DNA of 24,606 bases from Acidimicrobiia bacterium (GCA_044356125.1 JBIKWW010000001.1:1-24606); one strand, 5' to 3'. Shown: positions 6,990 to 22,953, numbered from the stretch's first letter. The notes: a model not told the origin generated them from the letters alone. A program made the numbers and translations.

Positions 6990-7015
6990 GAGGACGGGAC
7001 CGGGGCCCCGTCCTC
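6990..7015 (-). terminator. Likely terminator hairpin of the ABC operon
   Basis: GAGGACGGG (6990-6998) / CCCGTCCTC (7007-7015), 9 nt beyond the stop codon at 7025. Confidence 0.55.
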
Positions 7016-8455: not shown

Positions 8456-8564
8456 GGAGATGCCCCCTGAAGGCTGGATGGGATTCGAGGTCCCGGGCTG
8501 GGCCCGGCCCGCCCGGGACCGGGCGGGTGTGGTCGGGACGGTCCCCGCTTGGTCGGGGCCAGCA

Positions 8565-8580
8565 CGTGACCGACGTCACG
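8565..8580. promoter_or_regulatory. Palindromic operator-like site CGTGA-N6-TCACG (CRP/GlxR-like box)
   Basis: CGTGACCGACGTCACG in the 181-nt livM-livK gap, about 110 nt upstream of the SBP start. Confidence 0.5.
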
Positions 8581-8636
8581 GGCTGCCGTGCATTCTGGCA
8601 CAGCGTCGGTCGGGTTCGACGATGAGGTCGGTTCAG

Positions 8637-9911: not shown

Positions 9912-9913
9912 GG

Positions 9914-10855
9914 CTAGACCCTTCTGACCTCGCCGTGGCCGAACAGGCCCGACGGTCGCACGATCAGGATGATGAGCATGGCGATCCAGGGAACGAGGCT
10001 GAAGAAGCCGAACCCGAGGAAGTTCTCGTACTTCGGCGAGTAGCCGGCGAAGAGCTGCTCGAGGATGCCGATGACCATGCCGCCGACGATCGCTCCCTCG
10101 CTGGAGTCGATGCCGCCGAGCACCATGGCGGCGAAGCCGAACAGGGCGAACAGGGGGATCGAGGGGTCGACCGACCGGTCGGCCCCCGAGGACAGCATGA
10201 TGCCGGCCAGGGCTCCGAGGGCGGCGGCGAGCGCCCATGACAGGCCGAAGATGAAGTTGGCGCTGATGCCCTGGGCCATGGCCGCTTCCTGGTCGTGGGC
10301 GGTGGCCCGCATGGCCACACCCACCCGGCTGCGGTTGAACACGAAGAAGAACAGCACCGTGATGACGACGGAGATGATCAGCGTGACGAGGTCGACCAGG
10401 CGGATGGACACGTTCTCGATGCCGAGCCCGACGGTCCTGGTGCCGAACGGGCTGCGCAGGACCAGCGCGCCCGTGCCCCAGGCGGCGTGGGCACCGGTGT
10501 CGAGGATGATGTTGACCCCGAGGGTGGCCATGATCGCGGCGAACACCGGACGACCCCGGAATCGCCGCACGATCACCATCTCGATGAGCCAGCCCAGGGC
10601 ACCGGCGATGATCAGGGCGATGATCACCGCCAGCCAGTACGGGAGCTCGGCGATGTAGGCCGACGGCGTGAAGTTGATCCCCGGGTCGGGACCCGACACC
10701 CAGTACACGAGATAGCCGCCCAGCCCCATGACGGCACCTTGGGCGAAGTTCAGCACGTGCGTGGCCCGGTAGACGATGACGTAGCTGAGGGCGATGAGGG
10801 CGTAGATGGCGCCGCGGGCCACCCCGCCGACGAAGTAGTTGAGGAACTGGGTCAT
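9914..10855 (-). CDS. livH: ABC permease, LivH-like (313 aa)
   Basis: Start ATG 10855 (MTQFLNYFVGG). YALIALSYVIVYRATHVLNFAQG, SRVGVAMRATAHD, GGIDSSEGAIVGG. Confidence 0.92.
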   Translation of the reverse strand: MTQFLNYFVGGVARGAIYALIALSYVIVYRATHVLNFAQGAVMGLGGYLVYWVSGPDPGINFTPSAYIAELPYWLAVIIALIIAGALGWLIEMVIVRRFRGRPVFAAIMATLGVNIILDTGAHAAWGTGALVLRSPFGTRTVGLGIENVSIRLVDLVTLIISVVITVLFFFVFNRSRVGVAMRATAHDQEAAMAQGISANFIFGLSWALAAALGALAGIMLSSGADRSVDPSIPLFALFGFAAMVLGGIDSSEGAIVGGMVIGILEQLFAGYSPKYENFLGFGFFSLVPWIAMLIILIVRPSGLFGHGEVRRV

Positions 10856-12108
10856 GTCGTCACCTGCTTGGGGGTGGCGGAACGGTTGGCGTCGGCCCCC
10901 ACCGTCACGACGGGCAGGCCGAGCGCGCCGAGCACCTCGGACGCCTCGGGGCCGATGGGTTCGGAGACGACGACGGCCCGGGTGCGCGTGAGCCCGAGGC
11001 GGCGCCGCAGCGGCCCGGGCACGCTGATGCCCGAGAGCACGGCGAAGGACCCCGCACCCAGGGCCATGGCGATCGCCCCGAGGATCCTCAGGTAGTCGTT
11101 GGCCGACGGCGTGAGGGCGAACAGGACGAGGACCGCCGCGACGGTGACGATGCCGAGGGCCCGCAGGGGCGGGAAGCCCGGCGTCCTCGGGGTCGTGGCC
11201 GGAGTCCGCAGGCGGAAGCCCCGTCGCAGGGCCAGGCGCTTGAGGCCCCGGGTGGCCCGGACCCGACGATCGAGGTCCGTGGCCAGGGAGGCGGCCCAGG
11301 CTGGCGTGGCGTGGAGCAGGGTCGGCTGCACGGCCGTGATCTCGAGGGTGGCCAGCCGGTCGTCCTGACCGATGGCGAGCGACAGCCCGTGGCGCATGGC
11401 GCCGGTGATCGACAGTGCCCGCTCGGTGGGATCGGCGAAGCTGTGCTGGGGGTACAGCTCGTCGGTCGGCCCGAGCCCCACCGTCGCCCCGATCCGGTCC
11501 CCGGCGGCGAGCAGCGTGGCGTGGTCGGTGCGGTGCACCTCGGCGCCGTCGACCTCGACGACGGCCACGGTGTCGGGGGTGAGCGAGGCCAGCGCACGGC
11601 GCCAGGATCCATCGGAGCGAAGCGATTCGAGGGCGGCGAAGGACATCCGGCGGTCGGCGTCGGGACGACCGGCATCGTCGAGGTGGCGCAGGCCCCGGGT
11701 GTCCATGACGATCACCGGGGCATCTCCGATGGCACCGCCGTCGACCGCCTTGTCGTACTGCTCCTGATCGGAGACCACCACGACGGCCGGGGACGTGGCC
11801 TGCATCGCCCGGCTCACGGCCGACGGGCTCGCCGAGGTGGGGTCGAGGGCCAGGACGGCCGCGCCGAGACCCTGGGCGGCCAGGTCGGTCACGATCCACT
11901 CGACCCGGTTCGTCGCCACCAGGGCCACGACGGACCCGGCGGTGACGCCCAGCGAGGCCAGGCCGTCGCCCACCCGCTCGACCCGCTCGGCCAGGGCGGC
12001 CCAGGTCGTCGGCTGCCAGATGCCGAGCCCGTGGCTGCGCACGGCGACCTGCGTCCCGCGCTGGCGGGCCTGGTCGAGCAGCAGGCCCGGCAGGGTGCCC
12101 GCGCTCAC
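10852..12108 (-). CDS. Degenerate, C-terminally truncated AMP-binding (long-chain acyl-CoA ligase-like) protein with an inserted two-helix membrane segment (418 aa)
   Basis: GTG 12108 overlaps the livG stop; its TGA overlaps the livH ATG. Ligase-like N-terminus (TLPGLL, GIWQPTTW, NRVEW, DQEQYDK). No YTSGTTGxPKG P-loop, no YGxTE motif, no C-terminal domain. Confidence 0.8.
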   Translation of the reverse strand: MSAGTLPGLLLDQARQRGTQVAVRSHGLGIWQPTTWAALAERVERVGDGLASLGVTAGSVVALVATNRVEWIVTDLAAQGLGAAVLALDPTSASPSAVSRAMQATSPAVVVVSDQEQYDKAVDGGAIGDAPVIVMDTRGLRHLDDAGRPDADRRMSFAALESLRSDGSWRRALASLTPDTVAVVEVDGAEVHRTDHATLLAAGDRIGATVGLGPTDELYPQHSFADPTERALSITGAMRHGLSLAIGQDDRLATLEITAVQPTLLHATPAWAASLATDLDRRVRATRGLKRLALRRGFRLRTPATTPRTPGFPPLRALGIVTVAAVLVLFALTPSANDYLRILGAIAMALGAGSFAVLSGISVPGPLRRRLGLTRTRAVVVSEPIGPEASEVLGALGLPVVTVGADANRSATPKQVTT

Positions 12109-12923
12109 GCCCCCGCCCCCAGGTACGCCTCGATGACCCGCGGATCGGCGCGCACGTCGGCGGGCAGTCCCTCGCCGATCTTCTGGCCGAAGTCGATGAC
12201 GACGATGCGCTCGGCGACGTCCATCACCATGTGCATGTCGTGCTCGACGAGGATCATCGAGATGCCGAGCTCTCGCCGGGCCTCCAGGATGTAGCGGGCC
12301 ATGTCCTCGGTCTCGGTGGCGTTCATGCCGGCGACGGGCTCGTCGAGCAGGAGCAGCTTGGGGTCCATGCACAGGGCCCGGGCCAGCTCCATGCGCTTCT
12401 GCACGCCGTAGGGCAGCATGCCGACCGGCTGGCCCCGGTACACGTGCAGGTCGAGGAGCTCCATGACCTCCTCGACCCGGCGCCGGTGCAGGACCTCCTG
12501 GCGCTTGGTGGTTCCGGCGAAGGCGAGCCCGGCCAGGAAGCCGCCCTTCATGAGGTGGTGGCGCCCGAGCATCAGGTTGGCGACGACGTCGAGGCCCACG
12601 AACAGACCGATGTTCTGGAAGGTGCGGGCGATGCCCTGCTGCACGGTGAAGGGCGGGTTCGTGCCGATCAGCTCGACCCCGTCGAGCTTGATGGAACCCT
12701 CCTGGGGCCGGTACACGGCGTTGAGGCAGTTGAAGACCGACGTCTTCCCCGCCCCGTTCGGACCGATGATGGCGAACAGCTCGTTGCGACGGACGTCGAA
12801 GCTGAGGTCGTTGATCGCCGTCACACCGCCGAAGCGCAGGGTGACGTTGCGCACCTCGAGCAGGGGCTTCAGCTCGGCGCCCACCGCCGCGCCCACCCGC
12901 TGGGTGATTCCGGGGACGGTCAT
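12105..12923 (-). CDS. livG: ABC transporter ATP-binding protein, LivG-like (272 aa)
   Basis: Start ATG 12923. GPNGAGKT, ARTFQN, LPYGVQKRMELARAL, LLLDEPVAGM, LVEHDM, DPRVIEAYLG. Confidence 0.93.
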   Translation of the reverse strand: MTVPGITQRVGAAVGAELKPLLEVRNVTLRFGGVTAINDLSFDVRRNELFAIIGPNGAGKTSVFNCLNAVYRPQEGSIKLDGVELIGTNPPFTVQQGIARTFQNIGLFVGLDVVANLMLGRHHLMKGGFLAGLAFAGTTKRQEVLHRRRVEEVMELLDLHVYRGQPVGMLPYGVQKRMELARALCMDPKLLLLDEPVAGMNATETEDMARYILEARRELGISMILVEHDMHMVMDVAERIVVIDFGQKIGEGLPADVRADPRVIEAYLGAGA

Positions 12924-12936
12924 CGTGGCCTGCCCA

Positions 12937-13887
12937 TCACTCGGCCCACTCCTTGGGTCGGTACGTCTTGAGGTCCCGGTAGCTGGTGTGCTCGCTCTCA
13001 CCGCCGAGGTAGAGGGCCTTGATGTCGGGATCGTCGAGCAGTTCGGCGGCCGCCCCGTGCTTGGCGACACGTCCGGTCTCCATCACGTAGGCGTAGTCGC
13101 TGTTGCGCAGGGCCATGGCGGCGTTCTGCTCGACGAGCAGCACGCTCGTACCCTGCCGGTTGATCTCGCCGATGATCTCGAAGATCTGCTCGACGATCAG
13201 CGGGGCGAGGCCGAGCGAAGGCTCGTCCATCAGCAGCAGGCGGGGGTTGGCCATGAGGGCCCGGCCGATGGCGAGCATCTGCTGCTCGCCGCCCGAGAGG
13301 TAGCCGGCGATCTGGCGGCGACGCTCGAGCAGCCGGGGGAAGAGCGATATCACCCGCTCGTGGGACGCCTTCACCTCGGCCTTGTCCTTGCGCGTGTAGG
13401 CACCGGCCCGCAGGTTCTCCTCGACGGTGAGCTGGGCGAAGATCCGCCGGCCCTCCATGACCTGGGCCATGCCCCGACGTACGTTGGCGGCGGCGTCGCC
13501 ACCGGTGATGTCGGACCCGTCGAAGTGCACCGACCCGGCGGTCACCGCACCGCCCTGGTAGAGCAGCAGGCCCGAGATGGCCCGCAGGAGCGTGGTCTTC
13601 CCGGCGCCGTTGGCGCCCAGGATGGCCACGACCTTGCCGGTCGGCACGTCGAGCGACACGCCCCGTAGGACGTTGATGGCGCCGCCGTAGACGACCTCGA
13701 GCTCGCGCACGGTCAAGATGGCGGACGCGCCCGAAGAGGCGGGGGCGGACGCGCCCGAAGAGGCGGGGGCGGACGCGCCCGAAGAGGCGGGGGCGGACGC
13801 GCCCGAAGAGGCGGGGGTGGAGGGGCCGGTGGCGGCGGTGGCGGAGGCGTTGGATCCGGACATGGGGGGCTCGGTGACGGCAGTCAC
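12937..13887 (-). CDS. livF: ABC transporter ATP-binding protein, LivF-like, with a low-complexity N-terminal extension
   Basis: Start GTG 13887 (or ATG 13863). GANGAGKT, EGRRIF, LSGGEQQM, LLMDEPSLGLAP, VEQNA. C-terminal SYRDLKTYR tail typical of ligase-associated LivF proteins. Confidence 0.92.
   Translation of the reverse strand: MTAVTEPPMSGSNASATAATGPSTPASSGASAPASSGASAPASSGASAPASSGASAILTVRELEVVYGGAINVLRGVSLDVPTGKVVAILGANGAGKTTLLRAISGLLLYQGGAVTAGSVHFDGSDITGGDAAANVRRGMAQVMEGRRIFAQLTVEENLRAGAYTRKDKAEVKASHERVISLFPRLLERRRQIAGYLSGGEQQMLAIGRALMANPRLLLMDEPSLGLAPLIVEQIFEIIGEINRQGTSVLLVEQNAAMALRNSDYAYVMETGRVAKHGAAAELLDDPDIKALYLGGESEHTSYRDLKTYRPKEWAE
13721..13816 (-). repeat. Four perfect copies of a 24-bp unit encoding (PASSGASA)4 in the LivF N-terminus
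   Basis: GCGGACGCGCCCGAAGAGGCGGGG repeated at 13721, 13745, 13769 and 13793, with no spacers. Confidence 0.97.
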
Positions 13888-13888
13888 A
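13873..13888. promoter_or_regulatory. Second GTGA-N6-TCAC palindrome, overlapping the livF start
   Basis: GGTGACGGCAGTCACA has the same GTGAC-N4-GTCAC core as the site at 8565-8580. Confidence 0.45.
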
Positions 13889-13894
13889 GGGCCG

Positions 13895-13900
13895 ACACTA
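13895..13900 (-). promoter_or_regulatory. Putative -10 box (TAGTGT), leaderless promoter of the ABC operon
   Basis: TAGTGT on the - strand, 7 nt before GTG 13887. Confidence 0.5.
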
Positions 13901-14036
13901 TGGCACAGAATCCGACGCAGGCCGAGCACATACCGGAACCGATCTGCCGCCATCGGTGCCATTCCCGCCCGTCCCCTCCCGCCCTGCGGGGCCGCCATCT
14001 CCCCGGCGCAGGCGGCGCCGTGGCAGCATCGCCGCC

Positions 14037-15704
14037 GTGTTCGGCCGGGATCGTCGCAGTACCGCTGGAGGCGCCGCCCTCGACGAGGCCGTGCGGGCCT
14101 TCGTGGACGACCTCACGGTGATCCTGGAGGGGATGGTCGGGGAGCTCCCGGCTCCGCTCGCCTCCCGCCTGGCCGGCGACGTCGTGCTCGAGGCGCAGAA
14201 CCTCACGCTCGCCGTGATCGACGCCGACGGCCGCCACACCGACACCGAGCTGTGGTCCTACCTCGCCGCCTTCGCCCACCGCAGCGACGGGCAGCTCCAG
14301 CTCGCCACCCCAGCCGACGTCCGAGACGCCGGGCTGGCCGTCGACCGGCGCTCCTGGCTCACCACCGTGTCGGCCCTGTTCGATCTGGTCGTGACCGCCG
14401 ACGCCCGGAACCGGACCACGCACGCCTGGACGTACTACGACCGCGCCATGCGCCTGGCCCACACGGTCTGCGCCCTCGACGACCGCCCGTCCGACGACGA
14501 GCTGCGGGCCGTCGACGCGTTCCGGGCCCTGCTCGTCGACACCATGACGGCCCACGGCGTGGCCCGGCCGGGCTCGACGTCGACCTGGGTGCCCGGGCGT
14601 CTGCCCCAGGCGACGGGCCCGACCCCCGGGCCCCTCCCCTCCCCGGCGCGCCCGACATCGGGACCTGCGGGACCTGCGGGACCAGTCGAACCCGCCGGAC
14701 CCGCCGGACCCGCCGCCGTTCCAGCCGGTGCCCCGACCGTCGCCCCGACCGTCGCTGCCGCCGAGCAGCCCGGCCCGCCGGAGCCCATCGAGGAGCTCCT
14801 GGCCGAGCTCGACGACCTGGTGGGACTCGACGGCGTCAAGGCCGAGGTCCGGCTCGTCACCAACCTGCTCGAGATCGGACGGATCCGCGCCGAGCGCAAG
14901 CTGCCGACCGTCGAGGGTTCCCGGCACCTCGTCTTCACCGGAAACCCCGGGACCGGCAAGACCACCGTCGCCCGGCTGCTGGCGCGGATCTACCGGACCC
15001 TCGGTGTGGTCGAGCGCGGGCATCTGGTCGAGACCGATCGGGCCGGGCTCGTCGCCGGGTACGTCGGCCAGACGGCGATCCGGGTGACGGAGGCCTTCGA
15101 CCGGGCCGACCAGGGGGTCCTGCTGATCGACGAGGCCTATGCCCTGGCCCGGGGCGGCGAGCGCGACTTCGGCCGCGAGGCCATCGACACCATCGTCAAG
15201 CTGGTCGAGGATCGGCGTGACCGCGTGGTGGTGATCGCCGCCGGGTACCCGGCCGAGATGGCCGAGTTCATCGACGCCAACCCCGGCCTGCGGTCGCGGT
15301 TCCCCAAGACGATCCACTTCGAGGACTACTCCGACGATCAGCTCCTGGCGATCTTCGGGTCCCAGTGCCGCAAGGCCCACTACGAGCCCACGGATGAGGC
15401 GATCGAACGGGTCCGGGCCTACTTCCTGGCCGTCCCCCGCACGAAGGGCTTCGGCAACGCCCGGCTGTGCCGGAACCTCTTCGAGCAGGCCATCGCCAAC
15501 CAGGCCAGTCGTCTCATGGAGGCCCAGCGCACGCCCTCCGACGGGGCCCCCGCCCCGCTCCTCTCCGACGCCGACCTCGTCGCCCTCGTCGCCGCCGACA
15601 TCCCCGCCCCGCCGCCGGACTCCCCGCCGGACTTCCCGCAGGGTGCCCCTCCGTCGGATCGCCGGCGCCCGGATGTTCCCTTCGGGGAGACGGACGCCCC
15701 ATGA
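14037..15704 (+). CDS. SpoVK/CbbX-family AAA+ ATPase with an N-terminal TerB-like helical domain and Pro/Gly linker (about 555 aa; ORF open from 13956)
   Basis: LDDLVGLDGVK, HLVFTGNPGTGKTT, GYVGQTA, LLIDEAYAL, AGY, NPGLRSRF, FGNAR. Start 14037 is preferred because TGG-CAGCAT lies 7 nt upstream. Confidence 0.88.
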   Translation: MFGRDRRSTAGGAALDEAVRAFVDDLTVILEGMVGELPAPLASRLAGDVVLEAQNLTLAVIDADGRHTDTELWSYLAAFAHRSDGQLQLATPADVRDAGLAVDRRSWLTTVSALFDLVVTADARNRTTHAWTYYDRAMRLAHTVCALDDRPSDDELRAVDAFRALLVDTMTAHGVARPGSTSTWVPGRLPQATGPTPGPLPSPARPTSGPAGPAGPVEPAGPAGPAAVPAGAPTVAPTVAAAEQPGPPEPIEELLAELDDLVGLDGVKAEVRLVTNLLEIGRIRAERKLPTVEGSRHLVFTGNPGTGKTTVARLLARIYRTLGVVERGHLVETDRAGLVAGYVGQTAIRVTEAFDRADQGVLLIDEAYALARGGERDFGREAIDTIVKLVEDRRDRVVVIAAGYPAEMAEFIDANPGLRSRFPKTIHFEDYSDDQLLAIFGSQCRKAHYEPTDEAIERVRAYFLAVPRTKGFGNARLCRNLFEQAIANQASRLMEAQRTPSDGAPAPLLSDADLVALVAADIPAPPPDSPPDFPQGAPPSDRRRPDVPFGETDAP

Positions 15705-16597
15705 AGCGGGTGCTCGCCGCGATCGCCGCCGCCGCCATGATCGCCGGGGCGGTGCTCCTCCGGTCGCGGCTGGGCTCCGACGGCCCGTCGCCGGAAGCCG
15801 CCCGCCTGCGGATCGGCTGCGCCGTCGTGGTCGCCGAGCCGTGCCGGGAGTGGGCGACCAAGGCCGGGTTCGATGTCGTCGTGCTCGCCGACCCGCCCCC
15901 CGCCACGGGCTACGGCGCCGCCGTCGGAGCCCTCGACGCGGTGGTGGCCCCCGAGCCCTACGGTGCCCAGGCCCTCGCCCTGCCCGGCCCGGCCGCGGCC
16001 GTCGCCACCAGCCCGGTGGTGCTGGTGACCAGGGCCGACGACCAGGGCCGTCTGCGGGGGCCCGGCTCGGCCTGGTCCGACGCCATCGACGACGGGCAGC
16101 GGCTGTGGATCGAACCCGACGGGAGCTGGTTCGCGCCGGTGGTGCGCGCCGGGCTCGTCGCCGCCGCCCTCACCACCGATGCGCGGACGACCGGCACCTC
16201 CCCGCCCGCGCTCGCCGAGCTCGCCGCCCAGGACCTCCGCACCGACGCCGTGCTCGCCGCCGGCGACGACCTGGCCGCCGCCACCTCGGCCTCGAGCTCC
16301 CCGGATGCCCGTGACGCGATCAGTGCCATGGCCGCCCGGGAGCTCGACATCGTGGCCACGGTGGCCGCCGCCGCCGGGAAGCGGAGCAGCCAGAAGGTGA
16401 CGACCCCCGAACCCGAAGTGGCCGTCACCATCACCCTCACCCCCCGGGCCGACCTGGCCGAGCGGGGCCGGCTCGACGCCACCGCCGCCGCCCTCACCGC
16501 GGCGCTGCAGGCGGCTGGCTGGGCCGCCCCGGGCGGCGCCGGCAGCGGGATCGCCGAGGAGCTGCTCATCGGGATCGCCGCCGAGCTGCGAAGCTGA
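15701..16597 (+). CDS. Membrane-anchored/secreted Ala-rich protein, probable degenerate type II solute-binding fold (298 aa)
   Basis: ATGA overlap with the AAA stop. N-terminal MKR plus hydrophobic helix. Segments VATSPVVLV, AWSD and LQAAGW parallel FMRTPLVIA, GWTD and VLAFGF of the next gene. Confidence 0.7.
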   Translation: MKRVLAAIAAAAMIAGAVLLRSRLGSDGPSPEAARLRIGCAVVVAEPCREWATKAGFDVVVLADPPPATGYGAAVGALDAVVAPEPYGAQALALPGPAAAVATSPVVLVTRADDQGRLRGPGSAWSDAIDDGQRLWIEPDGSWFAPVVRAGLVAAALTTDARTTGTSPPALAELAAQDLRTDAVLAAGDDLAAATSASSSPDARDAISAMAARELDIVATVAAAAGKRSSQKVTTPEPEVAVTITLTPRADLAERGRLDATAAALTAALQAAGWAAPGGAGSGIAEELLIGIAAELRS

Positions 16598-16601
16598 CGG
16601 G

Positions 16602-18464
16602 GTGCAACACCGCAGCCGGCCGAGGTCCGTCCCCGCCGCACGCGCGCTGACGGTCGCGGCCCTGGCCGTGATCGCCGCTTCGTGCTCGTTCCCGGTGGAC
16701 GACTCCTCGTCCACCACGTCGGGGAACGGCCCCGCAGGGATCCCCGGCGACCGAATCCCGGTCGAGCTGGTCGTCTCCCCCGAGAAGATCACGCTGCTGA
16801 CCGAGCTGGCCGAGCAGTTCAACAACGACCGTGAGCTCTCCACCGTCGGCGGGGCCGACGGCAAGGAGATCGGCCGGGCCTTCGTCCGGGTCTCCCGCAA
16901 GGCCTCGGGTGGGGCCGCCGCCCTGCTCGCCCAGGACTGGCCCGACGAGGCCACGGACGGGCCCCGGCCCACCGTGTGGTCGCCCGCTGCGTCGTCGTGG
17001 GGAGCCGTCGTCGACCAGCGCCGCAGCGAGCAGGGCAAGGCCCCCATCGTCGGCCGCAGCCGTCCGTTCATGCGCACCCCGCTGGTGATCGCCATGCCCC
17101 GTCCGATGGCCCAGGCCCTGGGCTGGCCGTCGACGCCCATCGGATGGACCGACATCCTGGCCCTGGCCAAGGACCCGACCGGCTGGGCGTCCAAGGGCCA
17201 TCCCGAGTGGGGTCGGTTCCGCCTCGGCAAGACCAACCCGAACCTGTCGACCTCGGGCCTGTCGGCCACCGTCGCCCAGTACTACGCGGCCGCCGGCAGC
17301 ACGGGGAAGCTCGGCCTGGAGGATCTCCGCAACGACAAGGTCCTGCAGTTCGCCCGCGACCTGGAGTCCGCCGTCGTCCACTACGGCGACACCACCCTCA
17401 CCTTCCTCAACAACTGGGCCCGGGCCGACGCCCGCGGCAACGCCCTCGCGTACGCGTCCGCTGCCGCCGTCGAGGAGAAGTCGGTCATCGACTACAACAG
17501 CGGCGATCCCGACGGCGTGCTCGCCCCCGGCGAGACGCCCCGCAAGCCACGGCTGCCACTCGTGGCGATCTACCCGAAGGAGGGCACGCTCTTCTCGGAC
17601 AACCCCTTCATCGTGCTCGACGCCCCGTGGGTGAGCGCCGAGCAGAAGGCCGCTGCGGCGCGCTTCGAGGAGTTCGTGCAGCGTCCCGAGAACCAGCGGC
17701 GCGTGCTCGCCTTCGGCTTCCGTCCGGGCAACCCCGACGTCGCCATCGGCGACCCCATCAACGCCGCCAACGGCGTGGATCCCCAGCAGCCCAGGGCGAC
17801 ACTGGAGGTGCCCGAGCCCCGCGTGCTCACCGGCGTGCTCGACGCCTGGGCCCGGACGCGCAAGGGCGCCCGGGTGCTGCTCGTGCTCGACATCTCGGGC
17901 TCCATGGGGGATCCGGCCGTCGACGGCGGCAACGAGTCCAAGCTGGACCTGGCCAAGCGGGCCGCAGCCAGCGCCCTCGAGCAGTTCAAGGCCGACGACC
18001 TGGTGGGCCTGCGGGTGTTCTCCTCCGAGATCGGGCCCAACGCCGAGGACATCATCGATGTGCTCCCCGTGGCCGAGATCGGACCTGCCCGGGAGCAGAT
18101 GCGCTCCCGCATCAGCCAGTTGGTGCCGACCAACGGCACCCCCCTGTACACGGCCGCGCTCCAGTCGTTCCGGGACATGGAGGCGGCGCTCGATCCGGCC
18201 CGCATCAACGCCGTCGTGCTGCTCACCGACGGCCGCAACGAGGACCCCCGCAACGAGGACCTCCGGAGCCTGCTCACCGAGCTGCGCTCGGGGACCGAGG
18301 GGCAGCTGGTGTCGCCGGTGCGGATCTTCCCCATCGCCTACGGGGCCGACGCCGACCTCGACACCCTCAAGCGCATCGCCGAGGCCACCGACGCCGCCGC
18401 CTACAACGCCAAGGACCCCCGCACCATCGAGAAGGTCTTCGCCGACGTCATCGGCAACTTCTGA
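16602..18464 (+). CDS. Lipoprotein with extracellular solute-binding domain and C-terminal vWA domain (620 aa)
   Basis: Lipobox-like IAAS-C. SBP motifs PTVWSPA, TPLVIAMP, TNPNLSTSG, YPKEGT..SDNP, FGFRP. Complete MIDAS: LDISGSM, NGTPLY, LLTDG, plus IAYG. Confidence 0.9.
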   Translation: MQHRSRPRSVPAARALTVAALAVIAASCSFPVDDSSSTTSGNGPAGIPGDRIPVELVVSPEKITLLTELAEQFNNDRELSTVGGADGKEIGRAFVRVSRKASGGAAALLAQDWPDEATDGPRPTVWSPAASSWGAVVDQRRSEQGKAPIVGRSRPFMRTPLVIAMPRPMAQALGWPSTPIGWTDILALAKDPTGWASKGHPEWGRFRLGKTNPNLSTSGLSATVAQYYAAAGSTGKLGLEDLRNDKVLQFARDLESAVVHYGDTTLTFLNNWARADARGNALAYASAAAVEEKSVIDYNSGDPDGVLAPGETPRKPRLPLVAIYPKEGTLFSDNPFIVLDAPWVSAEQKAAAARFEEFVQRPENQRRVLAFGFRPGNPDVAIGDPINAANGVDPQQPRATLEVPEPRVLTGVLDAWARTRKGARVLLVLDISGSMGDPAVDGGNESKLDLAKRAAASALEQFKADDLVGLRVFSSEIGPNAEDIIDVLPVAEIGPAREQMRSRISQLVPTNGTPLYTAALQSFRDMEAALDPARINAVVLLTDGRNEDPRNEDLRSLLTELRSGTEGQLVSPVRIFPIAYGADADLDTLKRIAEATDAAAYNAKDPRTIEKVFADVIGNF

Positions 18465-18527
18465 GGCACCTGCACGGTCGAGGCGCCAGCGGCGGGCGAT
18501 CCAGGCGCGGCGCCGGGCCGCGCCGGC

Positions 18528-19508
18528 GTGGCGACCGTCCCTCACCGGGCCCGGCGGCCCTCGTCCGGTCCGCCCGTCGGGTCTGTCGTAGCCTCCCCTC
18601 CCGTGGCCCCAGACACCGACGACGCCATCGGCCGGGGCATCGCCCGCATCGGCCCGGGCCGCCTCGCCCGGGCGATCACGGCACCGTCGGGGATCCTGAC
18701 CTTCGGGGTCGTCACCGCCGCCGCCATCCTGGGTCTGGGCGTGTCGGCCGGAGCGTTGGCCGGGGCCGGGGTCCTCGGGACCGTGGCCTGGCTCGGCGGC
18801 ACCGCCTGGCGGATCGGCCGGGCCTCCCGGCAGGCCGATCGGAACGGCGGCCGGAACGGCGCAGGACCCCGGATCGACCCCTTCGCCGTGGGTGAGCCGT
18901 GGCGCCGCTTCGTCACCTCGGTCCTGCGCCAGCAGTCGCGCTACCGCGAGGTCGTGGCGGGCACGCAGGCGGGGCCCATCCGGGACCGCCTGGCCTCCAT
19001 CGGCGACCGCGTCGACGAGGTCGTGCGCGACGTGTGGGAGGTCGCCCAGCGGGGCAACACCCTCCACGACGCCCTGCGCCGTCTCGACCTGCGCAGCCTG
19101 GAGCGGGAGCTGGCCGACACCGAGCGCGAGCTGGCGACGGCCGGGCCGGACCGCCGGGCCGTCCTGACCGAGCTGGTCGAGACGCGTCGGGCCAGCCTGG
19201 CCGTCGCCCAGCGGCTCGCCTCGAGCACCCAGAGCGCCCTCGACCGCCTCCGCGCCCTCGATGCCGACCTCGAACGGCTGGTGGTGAACGCCGTGGAGGT
19301 GTCGGCCACCACCAGCACGAGCTCGGATCTCGACCAGCTCGACGAACTCGACCGCCAGTTCGACACGATGGTCGACGAGCTCGAGGGCCTGCGCCTGGCC
19401 CTCGACGAGACCCAGTCGGTCGAGCGGGGGGCCACCGGAGCTCCCGGCCCGACCGCGGCAGGCGGCACCCCGCTGCCCGGCTCGATGCCCGGCTCGATGC
19501 CCGGCTGA
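18528..19508 (+). CDS. Two-TM membrane protein with long cytoplasmic coiled-coil, PspM/XpaC-like (alternative start GTG 18603)
   Basis: Two hydrophobic helices (GILTFGVVTAAAILGLG; LAGAGVLGTVAWLGG), then heptad-rich helices ending DELEGLRLALDE. Directly upstream of pspA. Confidence 0.75.
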   Translation: MATVPHRARRPSSGPPVGSVVASPPVAPDTDDAIGRGIARIGPGRLARAITAPSGILTFGVVTAAAILGLGVSAGALAGAGVLGTVAWLGGTAWRIGRASRQADRNGGRNGAGPRIDPFAVGEPWRRFVTSVLRQQSRYREVVAGTQAGPIRDRLASIGDRVDEVVRDVWEVAQRGNTLHDALRRLDLRSLERELADTERELATAGPDRRAVLTELVETRRASLAVAQRLASSTQSALDRLRALDADLERLVVNAVEVSATTSTSSDLDQLDELDRQFDTMVDELEGLRLALDETQSVERGATGAPGPTAAGGTPLPGSMPGSMPG

Positions 19509-19555
19509 GCACGACGTTCGGCTCCCGCGGCCCCCCCGAAGCGGCGGGCCACCGG

Positions 19556-19561
19556 TACGAT
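19556..19561 (+). promoter_or_regulatory. Putative -10 box (TACGAT), leaderless promoter of pspA
   Basis: TACGAT lies 6 nt before ATG 19568, with no SD upstream. Confidence 0.6.
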
Positions 19562-19567
19562 TCCCGC

Positions 19568-20344
19568 ATGCTCAAGCTCGTCCGCCGTTCGTGGAAGTAC
19601 CTCACCGCGCTGCTCACCGGGAAGTTCAACGAGAAGGCGGACCCCAAGGTCCAGCTGGAGCAGGCCCTGGCCGAGGCGCAGGATCAGCACCGGCGCCTCA
19701 AGGAGCAGGCGGCCAACGTCATCGCCAACCAGAAGCAGACCGAGATGCAGCTCGAGCGCAAGCTCGACGAGTTGGAGAAGATCAACGCCTCGGCCCGCCA
19801 GGCCGTGCTCATGGCCGATGACGCCACCAAGAAGGGCGATCCGGCCAAGGCCGCCGAGTACACCCGCACGGCCGAGGCCTTCGCCAACCGGCTCATCGCC
19901 ATCGAGTCCGAGGTCGAGGGCCTGAAGAACCTGTCGCTGCAGGCCACGCAGGCGGCCGACCAGGCCAAGGCGGCCGTCGCCCAGAGCTCCACGCAGATCC
20001 AGAAGCGCCTGGCCGAGAAGCAGCGACTGCTGTCCCAGCTCGACCAGGCCAAGATGCAGGAGCAGATGAACACGACGATGGCGCAGCTCACCGAGCAGGT
20101 GGGCGGCGACGTCCCCTCGCTCGACGAGGTCCGCCAGAAGATCGAGGCCCGCTACGCCAAGGCCAGCGGCGCCGCCGAGCTCCAGAGCACGACCGTCGAG
20201 TCCCGCATGCTGGAGGTCGAGCAGGCCGCGGCCAACACCGAGGCCCAGGCCCGCCTCTCCCAGATCAAGGCCCAGCTCGGGCTCGGCGAGGCCGCCGCTC
20301 CGGCGTCGGCTCCTGCGCCCGGCACTCCCCAGCCGGGAGCCTGA
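19568..20344 (+). CDS. pspA: PspA/IM30-family protein (actinobacterial Rv2744c-like; ESCRT-III superfamily), 258 aa
   Basis: WKYLTALL, ADPKVQLEQA, LLSQLDQAKMQEQM, PSLDEVRQKIEARYA, SRMLEVEQA, as recalled for the mycobacterial PspA. Confidence 0.93.
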   Translation: MLKLVRRSWKYLTALLTGKFNEKADPKVQLEQALAEAQDQHRRLKEQAANVIANQKQTEMQLERKLDELEKINASARQAVLMADDATKKGDPAKAAEYTRTAEAFANRLIAIESEVEGLKNLSLQATQAADQAKAAVAQSSTQIQKRLAEKQRLLSQLDQAKMQEQMNTTMAQLTEQVGGDVPSLDEVRQKIEARYAKASGAAELQSTTVESRMLEVEQAAANTEAQARLSQIKAQLGLGEAAAPASAPAPGTPQPGA

Positions 20345-20353
20345 GCGGCCCGA

Positions 20354-20371
20354 TCGTCAGCGCGCTGACGA
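20354..20371. promoter_or_regulatory. Perfect 18-bp palindrome between pspA and the RNase gene
   Basis: TCGTCAGCGCGCTGACGA. The palindrome is seen directly; its function is unknown. Confidence 0.4.
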
Positions 20372-20389
20372 AGACCGACCGGAGATCCG

Positions 20390-21811
20390 ATGGTGCGGTC
20401 GCTGCGCGCCGACCGGGCCGTCGCCCGGCGCCTCGACGACGGCCTCCGGCTCATCAGGGAGCAGGCCGGGATCCCGGTCGCCTTTCCTGACGCGGTGACC
20501 CGCCTGGCCGCCGAACGGGTCGCCGCCGGCCCCCGCCCGGTGGACCGGGTCGACCTGACGGAGCTGGACTTCGTCACCCTCGACCCGGCGACGAGCACCG
20601 ACCTCGACCAGGCCTTCGTCGTCGGACGCGACGGTGGCACCGTGGTCGTCCACTACGCCATCGCCGATGTGGCCGCCTTCGTGGTGCCCGGCGACGCCAT
20701 CGATGCCGAGGCCTGGCGGCGGGCCGTCACCGTCTACGCCCCCGACGGCTCCACGCCGCTCTACCCCCGGGTCATCAGCTCGGGGGCGGCGTCGCTGCTG
20801 CCCGACGGTCCGCGTCCGGCGGTGGTGCTGGAGGTCGGTGTGGCCCCCGACGCCACCCCCACGCTGCGGCGCGTCCGCCGGGCCCTGGTCCGCAGCCGGG
20901 CCAAGCTCGCCTACGAGACCACCACCCCCGACGACCTCCCCGAGCCGGTCCGGGAACTGGCCCGGCGCATGCAGGACGGCGAGCGGCGTCGGGGAGCGTT
21001 CCGCATCGACACCCCGGAGCAGGAGGTCGTCGAGGATGCCGCCGTACCGGGCGGCATCCGCCTGCGCTTCGCCGCCCGGCAGGCCTCCGAGGAGGTCAAC
21101 GCGTCGATGTCGCTGGCGGTCAACCTGGCCGTGGCCTCGGCCATGATCGGGGCCGGGACCGGTCTGTTCCGCATGATGGCCGACCCGACCGACCGCGAGG
21201 TGGCGTCGCTGCGCCGGACCGCCGCCTCCTTCGGGATCGACTGGGCCCCCGACGAGTCCCTGCGCGACCTCGTCGCCCGCATCGATGCCACCGAGCCCCG
21301 GGCGGCCGCCCTGCTGATGGCGGCCCGTCGGGCCGGGGGCGGCGCATCGTATGCATACCTACGGACCGACGGCAGTGGCCCGGCACCCTGGCACGCTGCC
21401 ATGGCCGCGCCCTACGCACATGTCACGGCACCCATGCGCCGGCTGGCCGACCGCTTCGTGCTGGAGCTCGTCAGCGCGCAGATGAACGGCGAGCCCGTGC
21501 CCGACTTCGTGGACGAAGCTCTCCCCCGGCTCCCGCAGCTCATGGACGACGCCGACGGCCGTGCGGCCAGGATCGACCGCGCGGCCATCGACCTGGCCGA
21601 GTGCCTGATGCTCGAGCCCGCCATCGGGCGCCGCTTCGAGGCCGTGGTGGTGGAGACCGATCCGTCGGGACCGGCCACGGTGCACATCGACGATCCTGCC
21701 GTCGCCGTGCGCGTACGGCTGCGCGGCGTCGAGCCGGGTGACGTCGTCGAGCTGCGCCTGACCGGCGTCGACACCGCCCGGCGGCGCCTGGACTTCACCC
21801 GCACCCGCTGA
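20390..21811 (+). CDS. RNB-domain (RNase II/R family) 3'-5' exoribonuclease lacking obvious N-terminal cold-shock domains (473 aa)
   Basis: GGAG SD at 20381. FVTLDPATSTDLDQAF, HYAIADV, YAHVTAPMRRLADR, and a C-terminal S1-like beta region. Confidence 0.88.
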   Translation: MVRSLRADRAVARRLDDGLRLIREQAGIPVAFPDAVTRLAAERVAAGPRPVDRVDLTELDFVTLDPATSTDLDQAFVVGRDGGTVVVHYAIADVAAFVVPGDAIDAEAWRRAVTVYAPDGSTPLYPRVISSGAASLLPDGPRPAVVLEVGVAPDATPTLRRVRRALVRSRAKLAYETTTPDDLPEPVRELARRMQDGERRRGAFRIDTPEQEVVEDAAVPGGIRLRFAARQASEEVNASMSLAVNLAVASAMIGAGTGLFRMMADPTDREVASLRRTAASFGIDWAPDESLRDLVARIDATEPRAAALLMAARRAGGGASYAYLRTDGSGPAPWHAAMAAPYAHVTAPMRRLADRFVLELVSAQMNGEPVPDFVDEALPRLPQLMDDADGRAARIDRAAIDLAECLMLEPAIGRRFEAVVVETDPSGPATVHIDDPAVAVRVRLRGVEPGDVVELRLTGVDTARRRLDFTRTR

Positions 21812-21860
21812 GGGGCAGTTCACCCGCACCCGCTGAGCGGCACCGGCCGGCACCGGCCGG
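21794..21860. repeat. Duplicated gene end (19-bp direct repeat) plus a 10-bp tandem repeat
   Basis: TTCACCCGCACCCGCTGAG at 21794-21812 and 21819-21837; GGCACCGGCC x2 at 21839-21858. Confidence 0.9.
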
Positions 21861-21861
21861 C

Positions 21862-22953
21862 TCAGAGCAGCACGAGGTCGTCTCGGTGCACGAGCACGGT
21901 GGGGGCCTCCTCGGGCAGGTCGGCGGACCGACGGCCGGCCACGGCGCGGGCCCCCTCGGCGCTGTAGCGGGCCAGCCCCCGGGCGATCACGCGCCCGTCG
22001 CCGTCGGCGATCTCGATGGTGGCGCCCTCGTCGAAGTCGCCGACGACCCCCACGACGCCGGCGGGCAGCAGCGAGGTGCCCCGCTCGGTCAGCGCCCGTA
22101 CGGCTCCGCCGTCGATGACCACCCGGCCCTCGACCTCGCCGGCGAAGCCGATCCACAGCTTGCGGGCGCTGAGCGGCCGGGCGTGGGCGGCAACGACCGT
22201 ACCCACCCCGTCCACGTCGTCGGCTGCGTCGACCACCACCCGCGGGCGGGTGGCCGAGGCGATGACCGCCCGGACGCCCGACAGCGAGGCCATCCGGGCC
22301 GCCTGCAGCTTGGAGGTCATGCCCCCGCTGCCCCGGGCCGAACCGGTGCCGCCGGCCATGGCCAGAACCTCGGGGGTGACCGCCTCCAGCCGTCGCACCA
22401 AGGTGGCGGCCGGATCGGTGCGCGGATCGGCCGTGTACAGCCCGGCGATGTCGGTGAGCAGCACGAGCACGTCCGCGGCGATGAGGTGGCCGACGAGGGC
22501 GGCGATGCGGTCGTTGTCGCCGAAGCGCAGCTCGGCATCGGACACGGCGTCGTTCTCGTTCACCACGGGCACGACACCGAGCTCGAGCAGGCGCAGGAAC
22601 GTCTGGCGGGCGTGGAGGTACTGGGTCCGGTCGAAGAAGTTCCCGGGGACGAGCAGCATCTGGCCGCTCACGATGCCGAGCCGGGCGAAGGTGTCGTCCC
22701 AGGTGCGCATCAGGCGGCTCTGGCCGACCGACGAGACCGCCTGCTTGGTGAGCATGTCCGACGGCCGACGGTCCCCCATGCCGAGCGCCTCGAGGCCGGC
22801 GGCCACGGCTCCCGACGAGACCACCACCACCCGGTCACCCCGTCGGCGCAGCGCCGCGACCTCGTCGGCGACCCGCTCGATGGCGGCCCGCTGGATCAGG
22901 CCGCGCTCGTCCGTCAGCGATGAGGTCCCGATCTTGACGACGACGGTGGCCAC
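21862..22953 (-). CDS. proB: Glutamate 5-kinase with C-terminal PUA domain (363 aa)
   Basis: VVKIGTSSL, VSSGAVAAG, VGQSRLM, NENDAV, FGDNDRIAA, GSGGMTSKLQAA, SLLPAGV. Downstream of obgE. Confidence 0.97.
   Translation of the reverse strand: MATVVVKIGTSSLTDERGLIQRAAIERVADEVAALRRRGDRVVVVSSGAVAAGLEALGMGDRRPSDMLTKQAVSSVGQSRLMRTWDDTFARLGIVSGQMLLVPGNFFDRTQYLHARQTFLRLLELGVVPVVNENDAVSDAELRFGDNDRIAALVGHLIAADVLVLLTDIAGLYTADPRTDPAATLVRRLEAVTPEVLAMAGGTGSARGSGGMTSKLQAARMASLSGVRAVIASATRPRVVVDAADDVDGVGTVVAAHARPLSARKLWIGFAGEVEGRVVIDGGAVRALTERGTSLLPAGVVGVVGDFDEGATIEIADGDGRVIARGLARYSAEGARAVAGRRSADLPEEAPTVLVHRDDLVLL

What the first reader, a model, noticed from the sequence alone, without database searches (positions are those of the whole stretch)
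14037..20344. Candidate uncharacterised envelope-stress / membrane-remodelling system: AAA+ ATPase, two SBP-fold surface proteins (one with vWA), PspM/XpaC-like protein and PspA
Seen: five co-oriented genes, tightly packed at the front (ATGA overlap at 15701-15704, 4-nt gap at 16598-16601). They supply a cytoplasmic ATPase, a membrane-anchored SBP-like protein, an SBP-vWA lipoprotein, a 2-TM coiled-coil protein and PspA. Known: PspA/IM30 belongs to the ESCRT-III superfamily. The mycobacterial locus is clgR-pspA-pspM-pspN, and SBP-vWA genes occur with XpaC/TelA in Ter-type stress neighbourhoods. Here there is no clgR or telA, the PspM-like gene precedes pspA, and an AAA+ leads the cluster. Inference: a hybrid module in which surface SBP/vWA proteins sense a ligand or damage, the 2-TM protein recruits PspA polymers to the membrane, and the ATPase remodels them. 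Novelty is not established without a search.
Basis: partly seen in the sequence, partly recalled or inferred. Interest (0 to 1): 0.82.

Follow-up and report, generated by a model that had tools for sequence, protein, structure and literature searches.

The report
Conserved PspA operon with dedicated AAA+
A lake actinobacterium keeps its only membrane-repair gene (pspA) in a conserved operon with an uncharacterised two-helix membrane partner, two cell-surface binding proteins and a dedicated AAA+ motor. This matters because bacteria are generally said to lack such a motor for PspA-type proteins.

Summary
Five co-oriented, tightly packed genes at 14037-20344 encode:
- a SpoVK/CbbX/EccA-clade AAA+ with a TerB-like N-domain
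- a membrane-anchored SBP-fold protein
- an SBP+vWA lipoprotein with an intact MIDAS site
- a 2-TM protein with a confidently modelled cytoplasmic helical bundle
- the genome's single detected PspA

The cluster is not chance. In 111 distinct loci that hold the 2-TM gene:
- PspA follows on the same strand in 87/90
- SBP-vWA lies immediately upstream in 70/96
- the AAA+ lies upstream in 56/77
- all four are present in 40/67

The invariant core is the 2-TM protein plus PspA. An SBP-vWA–2TM–PspA triad also occurs without the AAA+ in other Actinomycetota families. One Acidimicrobiales group has lost the SBP genes, and there the AAA+ stop overlaps the 2-TM start.

The 2-TM protein is not PspM, XpaC or TelA by HMM or profile comparison. 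It shows only weak fold resemblance to XpaC and SLATT.

The most likely function is an envelope-stress module. The 2-TM protein would anchor or regulate PspA, and the AAA+ would be its dedicated remodelling chaperone. That mechanism is inferred and untested.

I found no description of this partner set in the searchable literature. An analogous PspA/AAA+/SBP theme is known in other phyla.

The parts
14037..15704 (+). AAA+ ATPase, 555 aa. It has a TerB-like all-helical N-domain (aa ~7-172), a Pro/Ala-rich linker, then a SpoVK-EccA-like-clade AAA+ module (aa ~250-520).
   Evidence: - Pfam AAA and AAA_lid_6.
- NCBIfam SpoVK 277 bits, CbbX 216, EccA 198, all below cut-offs.
- Closest solved structures are CbbX 3SYK (E 7e-56) and EccA1 9LUR (E 1.6e-44).
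- Walker A GNPGTGKT at aa 302, Walker B VLLIDE at 361, pore-loop AGYVGQ at 340, NPGLRSRF with the Arg finger at 415-422, sensor-2 GNARLCRN at 473, and a GY sensor-1 signature.
- N-domain AF2 model pLDDT 89. TerB likeness is weak to moderate.
15701..16597 (+). Membrane-anchored, fast-evolving SBP-fold protein, 298 aa, with an N-terminal signal-anchor MKRVLAAIAAAAMIAGAVLL.
   Evidence: - No Pfam or NCBIfam hit.
- ESM-Atlas structure match to ModA/sulfate SBP_bac_11 clusters at TM 0.55-0.66.
- Start overlaps the AAA+ stop (ATGA).
- A positional orthologue with the same N-terminal anchor and weak similarity lies between AAA+ and SBP-vWA in 65 loci.
16602..18464 (+). Extracytoplasmic lipoprotein, 620 aa, with an SBP_bac_11 domain (aa 56-374) fused to a vWA domain (aa 425-613) whose MIDAS site is intact.
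   Evidence: - Pfam hits.
- Lipobox AASC at aa 25-28 and DxSxS (DISGS) at aa 430.
- 54-65% identical orthologues immediately upstream of the 2-TM gene in 70/96 loci.
- Pieces present in two lake metatranscriptome libraries.
18528..19508 (+). 2-TM hairpin protein of an unnamed family. Both ends are inferred to face the cytoplasm. A conserved RIDPFxVGEPWR...GPLRDRL motif follows TM2, then a ~190-aa helical bundle. The true start may be 18603.
   Evidence: - Alignment A1 of 34 sequences, with invariant P124, W125, G149, P150.
- AF2 pLDDT above 90 for most of aa ~115-305.
- No Pfam family.
- Structural neighbours are only unnamed actinobacterial clusters.
- Followed by pspA in 87/90 loci.
- The cytoplasmic placement of both ends rests on the Arg-rich flanks and is my inference.
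19568..20344 (+). PspA/IM30 (ESCRT-III superfamily), 258 aa. It is the only PspA detected in this 84%-complete genome.
   Evidence: - PF04012 at E 8e-31.
- Single hit in the whole genome.
- 63-79% identical orthologues (A5).
- Pieces present in lake metatranscriptome libraries.

Best explanation
This is a conserved, operon-organised envelope-maintenance module of Actinomycetota built around PspA.

Shown:
- The invariant core is a dyad of an uncharacterised 2-TM protein with a cytoplasmic helical bundle and PspA.
- An extracytoplasmic SBP+vWA lipoprotein usually precedes the dyad.
- Across Acidimicrobiales and some other lineages, the module is extended upstream by a second membrane-anchored SBP-fold protein and by a cytoplasmic AAA+ ATPase.
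- The ATPase belongs to the SpoVK-EccA-like clade of narrow-substrate chaperones and carries a TerB-like N-terminal domain.

Inferred mechanism:
- The 2-TM protein is the membrane anchor or regulator of PspA. It would be a functional analogue, not a homologue, of PspM, PspB/C or LiaI.
- The lipoprotein, together with the anchored SBP, reports a ligand or an envelope state at the outer face of the membrane, using its SBP cleft and MIDAS site.
- The AAA+ hexamer is brought to the membrane complex by its N-domain. It uses ATP and its aromatic pore loop to remodel, release or recycle PspA, or the PspA-adaptor complex. This role would be analogous to Vps4 on ESCRT-III, carried out by a different AAA+ lineage.
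For: Linkage:
- In 111 distinct loci holding the 2-TM gene, PspA follows on the same strand in 87/90, SBP-vWA is immediately upstream in 70/96, the AAA+ is upstream in 56/77, and all four occur in 40/67 (maps).
- The flanks differ between lineages while the triad stays together.

AAA+ tied to the dyad and not to the SBPs:
- In the loci that lack both SBP genes, AAA-2TM-PspA remains. The AAA+ stop then overlaps or abuts the 2-TM start: L033 7855-7858, L039 7694-7697, L054 8896-8899, L049, L051.
- The AAA+ N-domain is single-copy in each genome that has it (34/41 relatives). It lies within ~6.3 kb of the 2-TM gene on the same contig in 24 of them.
- The N-domain family is small: 334 cluster representatives among 1.84 billion proteins. 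Full-length members are ~440-570 aa.

AAA+ looks active and belongs to a clade of dedicated chaperones:
- Walker A and B, pore-loop Tyr/Phe, Arg finger and sensor-2 are conserved.
- The three clade signatures given in PMC11513918 are present: GY in sensor-1, Asn four residues before the Arg finger, and a sensor-2 Arg.
- That paper states that N-domains of this clade recruit specific substrates.

Topology:
- The 2-TM protein's confidently modelled bundle and both Arg-rich flanks point to the cytoplasm, where PspA and the AAA+ are.

PspA:
- It is the genome's only detected copy.

Expression:
- Pieces of SBP-vWA, the 2-TM gene and pspA occur at 99-100% identity in lake metatranscriptome libraries. 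This is weak evidence, because DNA carry-over is not excluded.
Against: - There is no direct evidence of any protein-protein contact.
- The AAA+ is missing from the triad in several Actinomycetota families and is unlinked in at least one relative (G038). It is therefore an accessory, not a requirement.
- The N-domain shows no supported likeness to the MIT domain that Vps4 uses. The only signal is a sub-threshold profile hit (E 0.05), and structure searches do not back it.
- The extracellular loop of the 2-TM protein is only a few residues long. It is unclear how surface SBP/vWA proteins could signal to it.
- Members of this AAA+ clade studied so far activate enzymes (Rubisco, MurG) and do not disassemble polymers.
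- AAA+ gene pieces were not seen in the small RNA libraries.
Confidence: 0.5

Rival explanations
1. The AAA+ is a dedicated activase or chaperone for an envelope-biosynthesis client at the inner face of the membrane, for example the lipid II pathway or MurJ. This would parallel SpoVK acting on MurG. PspA and its 2-TM partner would be co-regulated neighbours and not its substrates.
For: - SpoVK, of the same clade, promotes MurG activity, and EccA1 is linked to mycolic-acid enzymes (PMC11513918).
- In many Acidimicrobiales a MurJ lipid II flippase gene sits inside the cluster, between the 2-TM gene and pspA.
Against: - The window and its whole family have the AAA+ but no MurJ in the cluster.
- Where the cluster shrinks, the AAA+ stays translationally coupled to the 2-TM gene.
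- The cluster MurJ is one of two copies in the four genomes checked.
- No other enzyme gene is consistently linked.
Confidence: 0.2
2. The gene order is conserved only by synteny or shared regulation next to proB-obg. The AAA+ and SBP genes would have functions unrelated to PspA, for example orphan binding proteins for a transporter.
For: - The whole region MoxR-CoxE ... AAA ... PspA | proB obg is syntenic in Acidimicrobiales, so some linkage is inherited.
- The sampled genomes are kin and are not independent.
Against: - The SBP-vWA-2TM-PspA triad persists in distant families with entirely different flanks: an ECF sigma factor, an ABC1 kinase, ThiS/PALP.
- Stop/start overlaps are present.
- There are no permease or ABC ATPase genes in the cluster. 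The adjacent liv operon is divergent, has its own Peripla_BP_6 binding protein, and is absent from that position in most relatives.
Confidence: 0.12
3. It is a conflict or defence-type system. The vWA/SBP surface proteins would sense an invader, the 2-TM protein would be a SLATT-like membrane-perturbing effector, and PspA would limit self-damage.
For: - The 2-TM model's second-best AFDB cluster is a 'SMODS and SLOG-associating 2TM effector' protein (E 3.9e-8, TM 0.53/0.56).
- vWA plus AAA+ (MoxR) pairs are used in threat-sensing systems (10.64898/2026.09.08.750141).
- A MoxR-CoxE pair is the conserved divergent neighbour.
Against: - The cluster is single-copy and vertically inherited, and sits at a fixed housekeeping position beside proB-obg across an order.
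- No nucleotide-signalling, nuclease or toxin genes are present.
- No Pfam family, 2TM/SLATT or other, matches the 2-TM protein consistently.
- The fold hit aligns with rmsd 17.9 Å, so it reflects shared architecture more than a shared fold.
Confidence: 0.06

Closest known systems
Mycobacterial ClgR-PspA-PspM-PspN system (Rv2745c-Rv2742c)
   Same: Both are actinobacterial. In both, pspA lies next to a gene for a 2-TM membrane protein with a cytoplasmic helical region, which in mycobacteria is PspA's membrane partner.
   Different: - There is no clgR or pspN here.
- The 2-TM gene precedes pspA.
- It is not homologous to PspM by any test: PF25587 finds nothing in the window, and hhalign gives 1.3%.
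- PF25587 was found in only 6 of 201 sampled Actinomycetota genomes, all in one family.
- The SBP, vWA and AAA+ partners are absent from the mycobacterial locus.
PspA / TM-Snf7 / inactive-AAA+AAA / ABC / PBPB(+OmpA) operons described by comparative genomics (Ravi et al. 2024, PMC11237479)
   Same: The logic is the same: PspA is encoded with an AAA+ ATPase, a membrane coiled-coil protein and secreted solute-binding-fold proteins. The authors proposed ATP-dependent membrane remodelling.
   Different: - The parts differ. There the AAA+ is a tandem classical AAA with an inactive first domain. Here it is a single SpoVK-EccA-clade module with a TerB-like N-domain.
- There is no ABC transporter, no OmpA anchor and no Snf7 paralogue here.
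- The SBP is SBP_bac_11 fused to vWA.
- The lineage differs (Actinomycetota).
- vWA, MurJ and TerB do not occur in that paper's text or supplement.
SpoVK-EccA-like clade of AAA+ chaperones (CbbX, SpoVK, EccA; PMC11513918)
   Same: - The AAA+ module is a clear member: CbbX 3SYK at E 7e-56 and EccA1 at 1.6e-44.
- All three clade signatures are present.
- It has a variable N-domain, presumed to recruit a dedicated substrate.
   Different: - It is not an equivalog of SpoVK, CbbX or EccA. Every score is well below the curated cut-off.
- A TerB-like helical N-domain is not among the N-domains listed for the clade in that paper's main text.
- The operon partners (2-TM protein, PspA) are new for the clade.
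Vps4 / CdvC with ESCRT-III
   Same: An AAA+ ATPase is encoded with an ESCRT-III-superfamily protein. It has an all-helical N-domain before the ATPase and an aromatic pore loop.
   Different: - It is a different AAA+ lineage. No Vps4 appears among the PDB sequence hits at 1e-8.
- An MIT domain is not supported: only a profile E of 0.05-0.22, with no structural match.
- No MIM motif was identified in PspA's variable Pro/Ala-rich tail.
XpaC (PF10112) / TelA membrane-stress proteins and DjlA (TerB + J domain)
   Same: - XpaC also has a Gly/Ala-rich 2-TM hairpin followed by a helical domain. An XpaC cluster appears among the fold hits (E 6e-4).
- DjlA-type proteins couple a TerB domain to a chaperone-recruiting module at the membrane. 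TerB+DnaJ clusters appear among the fold neighbours of the AAA+ N-domain.
   Different: - There is no sequence or profile relationship to XpaC or to TelA.
- TerB likeness of the N-domain is weak: Pfam TerB hits 3 of 18 orthologues (best E 0.01), VIA Z is 5.2, and TM is 0.44-0.48.

Membership tests
PspA/IM30 (PF04012) | Match to the family HMM above the curated cut-off over the full length | tested here: met
   107.8 bits against a cut-off of 33.9, covering profile positions 4-218 of 220. It is the single copy in the genome.
PspM (Rv2743c, PF25587) | Sequence or profile similarity to Rv2743c-family proteins | tested here: not met
   PF25587 gives no hit in the window at E<=1 and does not appear in the per-member Pfam scan. 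hhalign of A1 against five PspM sequences gives probability 1.3%. The only signal is a language-model feature similarity of 0.94 to an Rv2743c cluster.
PspM (Rv2743c, PF25587) | 2-TM membrane protein encoded adjacent to pspA | tested here: met
   Hydrophobic hairpin at aa ~54-105. pspA lies downstream in 87/90 loci. This shows an analogous role, not homology.
XpaC (PF10112) / TelA (PF05816) | HMM or profile match | tested here: not met
   PF10112 gives no hit in the genome. PF05816 gives no hit in the window. hhalign of A1 against an XpaC alignment gives probability 5.6%. There is a weak fold hit only (E 6e-4, TM 0.34/0.48).
SpoVK-EccA-like clade of classical AAA+ (PMC11513918) | GY signature in sensor-1; Asn four residues before the first Arg finger; second Arg finger (sensor-2) present | tested here: met
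   AAGYP has G403 and Y404 invariant. NPGLRSRF has N415 and R419. GNARLCRN has R476 and R479 invariant.
SpoVK / CbbX / EccA equivalogs (TIGR02881, TIGR02880, TIGR03922) | Score above the NCBIfam equivalog cut-off | tested here: not met
   277 against 423, 216 against 459, and 198 against 467 bits. It is a separate family within the clade.
Vps4/CdvC-type ESCRT-III ATPase | N-terminal MIT domain and Vps4-lineage AAA module | tested here: not met
   The MIT hit is sub-threshold (E 0.05 and 0.22). No MIT appears in Foldseek or VIA searches of the N-domain model. The AAA module is closest to CbbX and EccA.
TerB (PF05099) for the AAA+ N-domain | HMM match, or clear fold match to TerB structures | tested here: inconclusive
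   - The window protein has no Pfam hit.
- 3 of 18 orthologues hit TerB, with best E 0.01.
- VIA gives Z 5.2 to TerB-family 2OU3, which has the highest ranking score in the list.
- Four TerB-containing Atlas clusters lie among the nearest models at TM 0.44-0.48.
- A DADGRHTDxE motif is conserved.
Solute-binding protein fold (SBP_bac_11) for gene 2 | HMM match or fold match | tested here: inconclusive
   There is no HMM hit. The predicted-structure match to ModA/sulfate SBP clusters is TM 0.55-0.66, and the feature score is 0.96.
vWA domain with functional MIDAS | VWA HMM match and a DxSxS metal-site motif | tested here: met
   PF00092 at E 1.1e-9 and PF13519 at 1.1e-8. DISGS at aa 430.

The most novel reading that the evidence does not exclude
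The TerB-like-AAA+ is a bacterial, non-orthologous counterpart of Vps4. It would be a dedicated ATPase, docked at the membrane through the 2-TM adaptor, that disassembles or recycles PspA (ESCRT-III-type) polymers. Acidimicrobiales would then have an ATP-driven PspA cycle of the kind thought to be missing from bacteria.
Probability: 0.3. Interest if true: 0.85.

Novelty: new variant of a known kind. Interest (0 to 1): 0.62.

Why it matters
PspA and Vipp1 are the bacterial members of the ESCRT-III superfamily. A 2025 review states that a Vps4-like ATPase 'appears absent in bacteria', which leaves open how PspA polymers are regulated (PMC7619361).

This locus offers a concrete set of parts to test:
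- a single-copy PspA
- an invariant, uncharacterised 2-TM partner family
- a single-copy AAA+ that is translationally coupled to that partner in minimal versions of the operon

It also adds a new N-domain and a new candidate client to the recently defined SpoVK-EccA-like clade of narrow-substrate chaperones. It links PspA to extracytoplasmic SBP/vWA proteins and, in many relatives, to a MurJ paralogue. The lineage includes abundant lake bacteria and the wastewater organism Candidatus Microthrix parvicella.

Tried and rejected
- **Co-folding.** I co-folded the 2-TM cytoplasmic domain (aa 108-306) with PspA. The score was 0.00, so the result is 'no support, and no evidence against'. I do not use it either way.
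- **MIT domain.** A profile-versus-PDB search of the AAA+ N-domain gave sub-threshold hits to the Sulfolobus Vps4 MIT domain (E 0.05) and to CdvC (E 0.22). Foldseek and VIA-align on the pLDDT-89 model found no MIT, so I dropped the idea.
- **Known families for the 2-TM protein.** PspM, XpaC and TelA were all rejected by HMM and hhalign.
- **Fold searches of the 2-TM model.** Foldseek against PDB and Swiss-Prot gave only generic helical-bundle, BAR and eisosome hits at E>=0.01.
- **Language-model search of the AAA+ N-domain.** Uninformative, with scores <=0.77.
- **Promoter and terminator scan of 13600-21900.** Nothing above the shuffled expectation.
- **Gene 2 orthologues.** phmmer of gene 2 against the positional orthologues found nothing. 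BLASTP found only weak similarity (E 1e-5 to 1e-2).
- **Gene 2 versus gene 3.** BLASTP of gene 2 against the SBP domain of gene 3 gave no significant similarity.
- **RNA evidence.** The libraries hold only short contigs, so no operon-spanning transcript could be shown.
- **Unavailable paper.** Ravi et al. 2018 (Antonie van Leeuwenhoek, PMC5916035) on Psp in Actinobacteria is not held and could not be read.

Full report
**Observation**

The window is about 72% G+C, so I used third-position GC to pick the real frames.

The flagged stretch holds five co-directional genes:
- 14037-15704
- 15701-16597
- 16602-18464
- 18528-19508 (a start at 18603 is equally possible; the database gene call is 301 aa)
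- 19568-20344

The ATGA overlap at 15701-15704 and the 4-nt gap at 16598-16601 are present.

Upstream, on the other strand, lies a liv-type ABC operon (7025-13998). Beyond it is a MoxR-type AAA and VWA_CoxE pair (4385-6998). Downstream are an RNase II-like gene (20390-21811), proB and obg.

**The parts**

*Gene 1 (AAA+).*
- It has Pfam AAA and AAA_lid_6.
- It scores best against SpoVK, CbbX and EccA, all far below their equivalog cut-offs.
- Its nearest solved relatives are CbbX (E 7e-56) and EccA1.
- Walker A and B, the aromatic pore loop (AGYVGQ), the Arg finger and sensor-2 are conserved in 21 orthologues.
- All three signatures that PMC11513918 gives for the 'SpoVK-EccA-like' clade are present. 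That paper describes the clade as chaperones with narrow, dedicated clients recruited by variable N-domains.

*Gene 1, N-domain (aa ~7-172).*
- It folds confidently (pLDDT 89).
- Its family is small: 334 representatives in 1.84 billion proteins.
- It is single-copy in each genome that has it.
- It resembles TerB only weakly: Pfam TerB in 3/18 orthologues, VIA Z 5.2 to 2OU3, and TerB and TerB+DnaJ clusters among the Atlas neighbours at TM 0.44-0.48.

*Gene 2.* It has no family hit. Its Atlas model matches ModA/sulfate-type binding proteins (TM 0.55-0.66), and it carries an N-terminal signal-anchor.

*Gene 3.* It is an SBP_bac_11+VWA lipoprotein with a lipobox and an intact MIDAS motif.

*Gene 4 (2-TM protein).*
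- It has a Gly/Ala-rich hydrophobic hairpin modelled as two helices.
- A strongly conserved RIDPFxVGEPWR...GPLRDRL motif follows.
- A cytoplasmic helical bundle then follows, modelled at pLDDT above 90 over most of its length.
- It belongs to no named family.

*Gene 5.* It is PspA, the only copy detected in this 84%-complete genome.

**Conservation**

The genome is a lake Acidimicrobiia MAG. Genomes that the tool places in its family carry that name in their record titles, and the best DNA holders are lake metagenomes.

The 2-TM protein was found in 36 of 41 relatives. A collection-wide scan found 407 relatives, and the best 80 were all Acidimicrobiia/Acidimicrobiales. They include Microthrixaceae with Ca. 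Microthrix parvicella, Ilumatobacteraceae and Iamiaceae.

I mapped the window's proteins onto 111 distinct loci:

| Feature | Loci with it / loci with room to see it |
|---|---|
| PspA downstream on the same strand | 87/90 |
| PspA directly adjacent (within 400 nt) | 38/90 |
| SBP-vWA immediately upstream | 70/96 |
| AAA+ upstream within 5.2 kb | 56/77 |
| All four genes | 40/67 |

- In the loci I checked where PspA is not directly adjacent, the intervening gene is a MurJ gene.
- A positional orthologue of gene 2 occupies the AAA/SBP-vWA gap in 65 loci. It has the same N-terminal anchor but only weak similarity.

Three variations are informative:
1. One genus-level group, some loci of a second genus and one further genome of the order lack both SBP genes. 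They keep AAA-2TM-PspA, and where I checked the coordinates the AAA+ stop overlaps or abuts the 2-TM start.
2. Several other Actinomycetota families keep SBP-vWA(x1-2)-2TM-PspA without the AAA+, and with unrelated flanks.
3. Some Ilumatobacteraceae-type loci have a second 2-TM paralogue right after the AAA+.

The 2TM-PspA dyad is therefore the core. SBP-vWA and the AAA+ are frequent accessories that can be gained or lost separately.

The sampled genomes are relatives of one another. The fractions describe linkage and are not independent trials.

**What it most likely does**

Shown:
- linkage and gene order
- stop/start coupling
- an AAA+ whose catalytic and pore-loop motifs are all conserved, belonging to a clade of dedicated chaperones
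- an extracytoplasmic lipoprotein with an SBP cleft and a MIDAS site

Inferred:
- The bundle of the 2-TM protein faces the cytoplasm. This rests on the Arg-rich flanks on both sides of the hairpin.
- The 2-TM protein anchors or regulates PspA at the membrane. This would be the role of PspM, PspB/C or LiaI, played by an unrelated protein.
- The surface proteins provide the input.
- The AAA+ is recruited by its N-domain and remodels or recycles PspA, or the PspA-adaptor complex.

I give the overall model 0.5. The specific 'Vps4-analogue' step gets about 0.3.

The main rival (0.2) is that the AAA+ serves an envelope-biosynthesis client, as SpoVK serves MurG. The MurJ gene embedded in many relatives' clusters makes this attractive. 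Against it, the AAA+ persists where MurJ is absent, and it is coupled to the 2-TM gene.

Two further rivals are less likely, for the reasons listed with them: pure synteny (0.12) and a conflict system with a SLATT-like 2-TM effector (0.06, from the fold hit).

**Comparison with what is known**

- *PspM.* The 2-TM protein is not PspM.
- *XpaC and TelA.* It is not XpaC or TelA. An XpaC cluster does appear weakly among fold hits, and XpaC has a similar Gly/Ala-rich hairpin-plus-helices layout.
- *Vps4.* The AAA+ is not Vps4-lineage, and an MIT domain is not supported.
- *Closest described theme.* This is the PspA / TM-Snf7 / tandem-AAA / ABC / PBPB-OmpA operon of other phyla in Ravi et al. 2024. 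It shares the logic but none of the specific accessory families.
- *Literature coverage.* Ravi et al. 2024 (text and supplement) does not mention vWA, MurJ or TerB. Popp et al. 2022 does not mention vWA or MurJ. The SpoVK clade paper does not mention TerB, vWA or PspA. I could not read Ravi et al. 2018.
- *Earlier notes of this scan.* They record what reads as the same partner set in a soil actinobacterium (e1-2440808), and the analogous cross-phylum modules. These are unchecked notes. My own cross-lineage survey agrees with the first.

**Verdict**

This is a real, widely conserved PspA operon with a partner set I did not find described. It is a new variant of the known 'PspA plus membrane partner plus AAA+' kind. 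The mechanism is plausible and directly testable, but unproven.

The co-folding test of the 2-TM domain with PspA gave no verdict. RNA data show only that pieces of three of the genes occur in lake metatranscriptome libraries.

Noticed in passing
L164:9717-11441, L101:9795-11528, L144:9623-11608, L163:9327-11915: In many Acidimicrobiales, including Ca. Microthrix parvicella, a MurJ (lipid II flippase, PF03023) gene sits co-directionally between the 2-TM gene and pspA. Four such genomes checked have a second MurJ elsewhere. The window's genome has MurJ only on another contig (C452).
   Followed up: partly
L115:3837-4514, L146:5698-6222, L155:5306-5989: Some Ilumatobacteraceae-type loci carry a second, divergent paralogue of the 2-TM protein directly after the AAA+ gene, in addition to the copy before pspA.
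   Followed up: no
window 4385-6998 (- strand): A VWA_CoxE plus MoxR-type AAA pair is the conserved divergent neighbour of the AAA+ gene in most Acidimicrobiales loci. In the window's family, the liv ABC operon (7025-13998) is inserted between them.
   Followed up: partly
window 20390-21811 (+): An RNB + S1 (RNase II/R-like, 473 aa) gene lies between pspA and proB. tblastn with its protein found no match in any of the relatives' fetched loci, where pspA is followed by proB-obg.
   Followed up: partly
window 20356-20369: A 14-nt perfect palindrome GTCAGCGCGCTGAC lies 12 nt after the pspA stop, in the 45-nt gap before the RNB gene. It could be a terminator stem or an operator.
   Followed up: no
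window 13864-14036: livF probably starts at the internal ATG near 13863 and not at 13998. That leaves a ~170-nt divergent intergenic region shared with the AAA+ operon.
   Followed up: partly
L047:7913-9489: One relative has a HipA-like gene, judged from the translated sequence by eye, plus a small HTH gene inserted between SBP-vWA and the 2-TM gene. This looks like a toxin-antitoxin pair. The cluster therefore tolerates insertions at that junction.
   Followed up: no
window 16628-20295: Two lake metatranscriptome libraries hold short contigs at 99-100% identity to parts of SBP-vWA, the 2-TM gene and pspA. One contig (18222-18505) runs 41 nt past the SBP-vWA stop. No long matching piece covers the AAA+ gene or gene 2. 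DNA carry-over is not excluded.
   Followed up: partly
G029 (same order, 2.0 Mb, 100% complete): This streamlined relative has no detectable PspA, 2-TM protein or AAA+ N-domain, so the whole module is missing together. G030 and G034 have PspA, but the single-protein query found no 2-TM homologue.
   Followed up: partly
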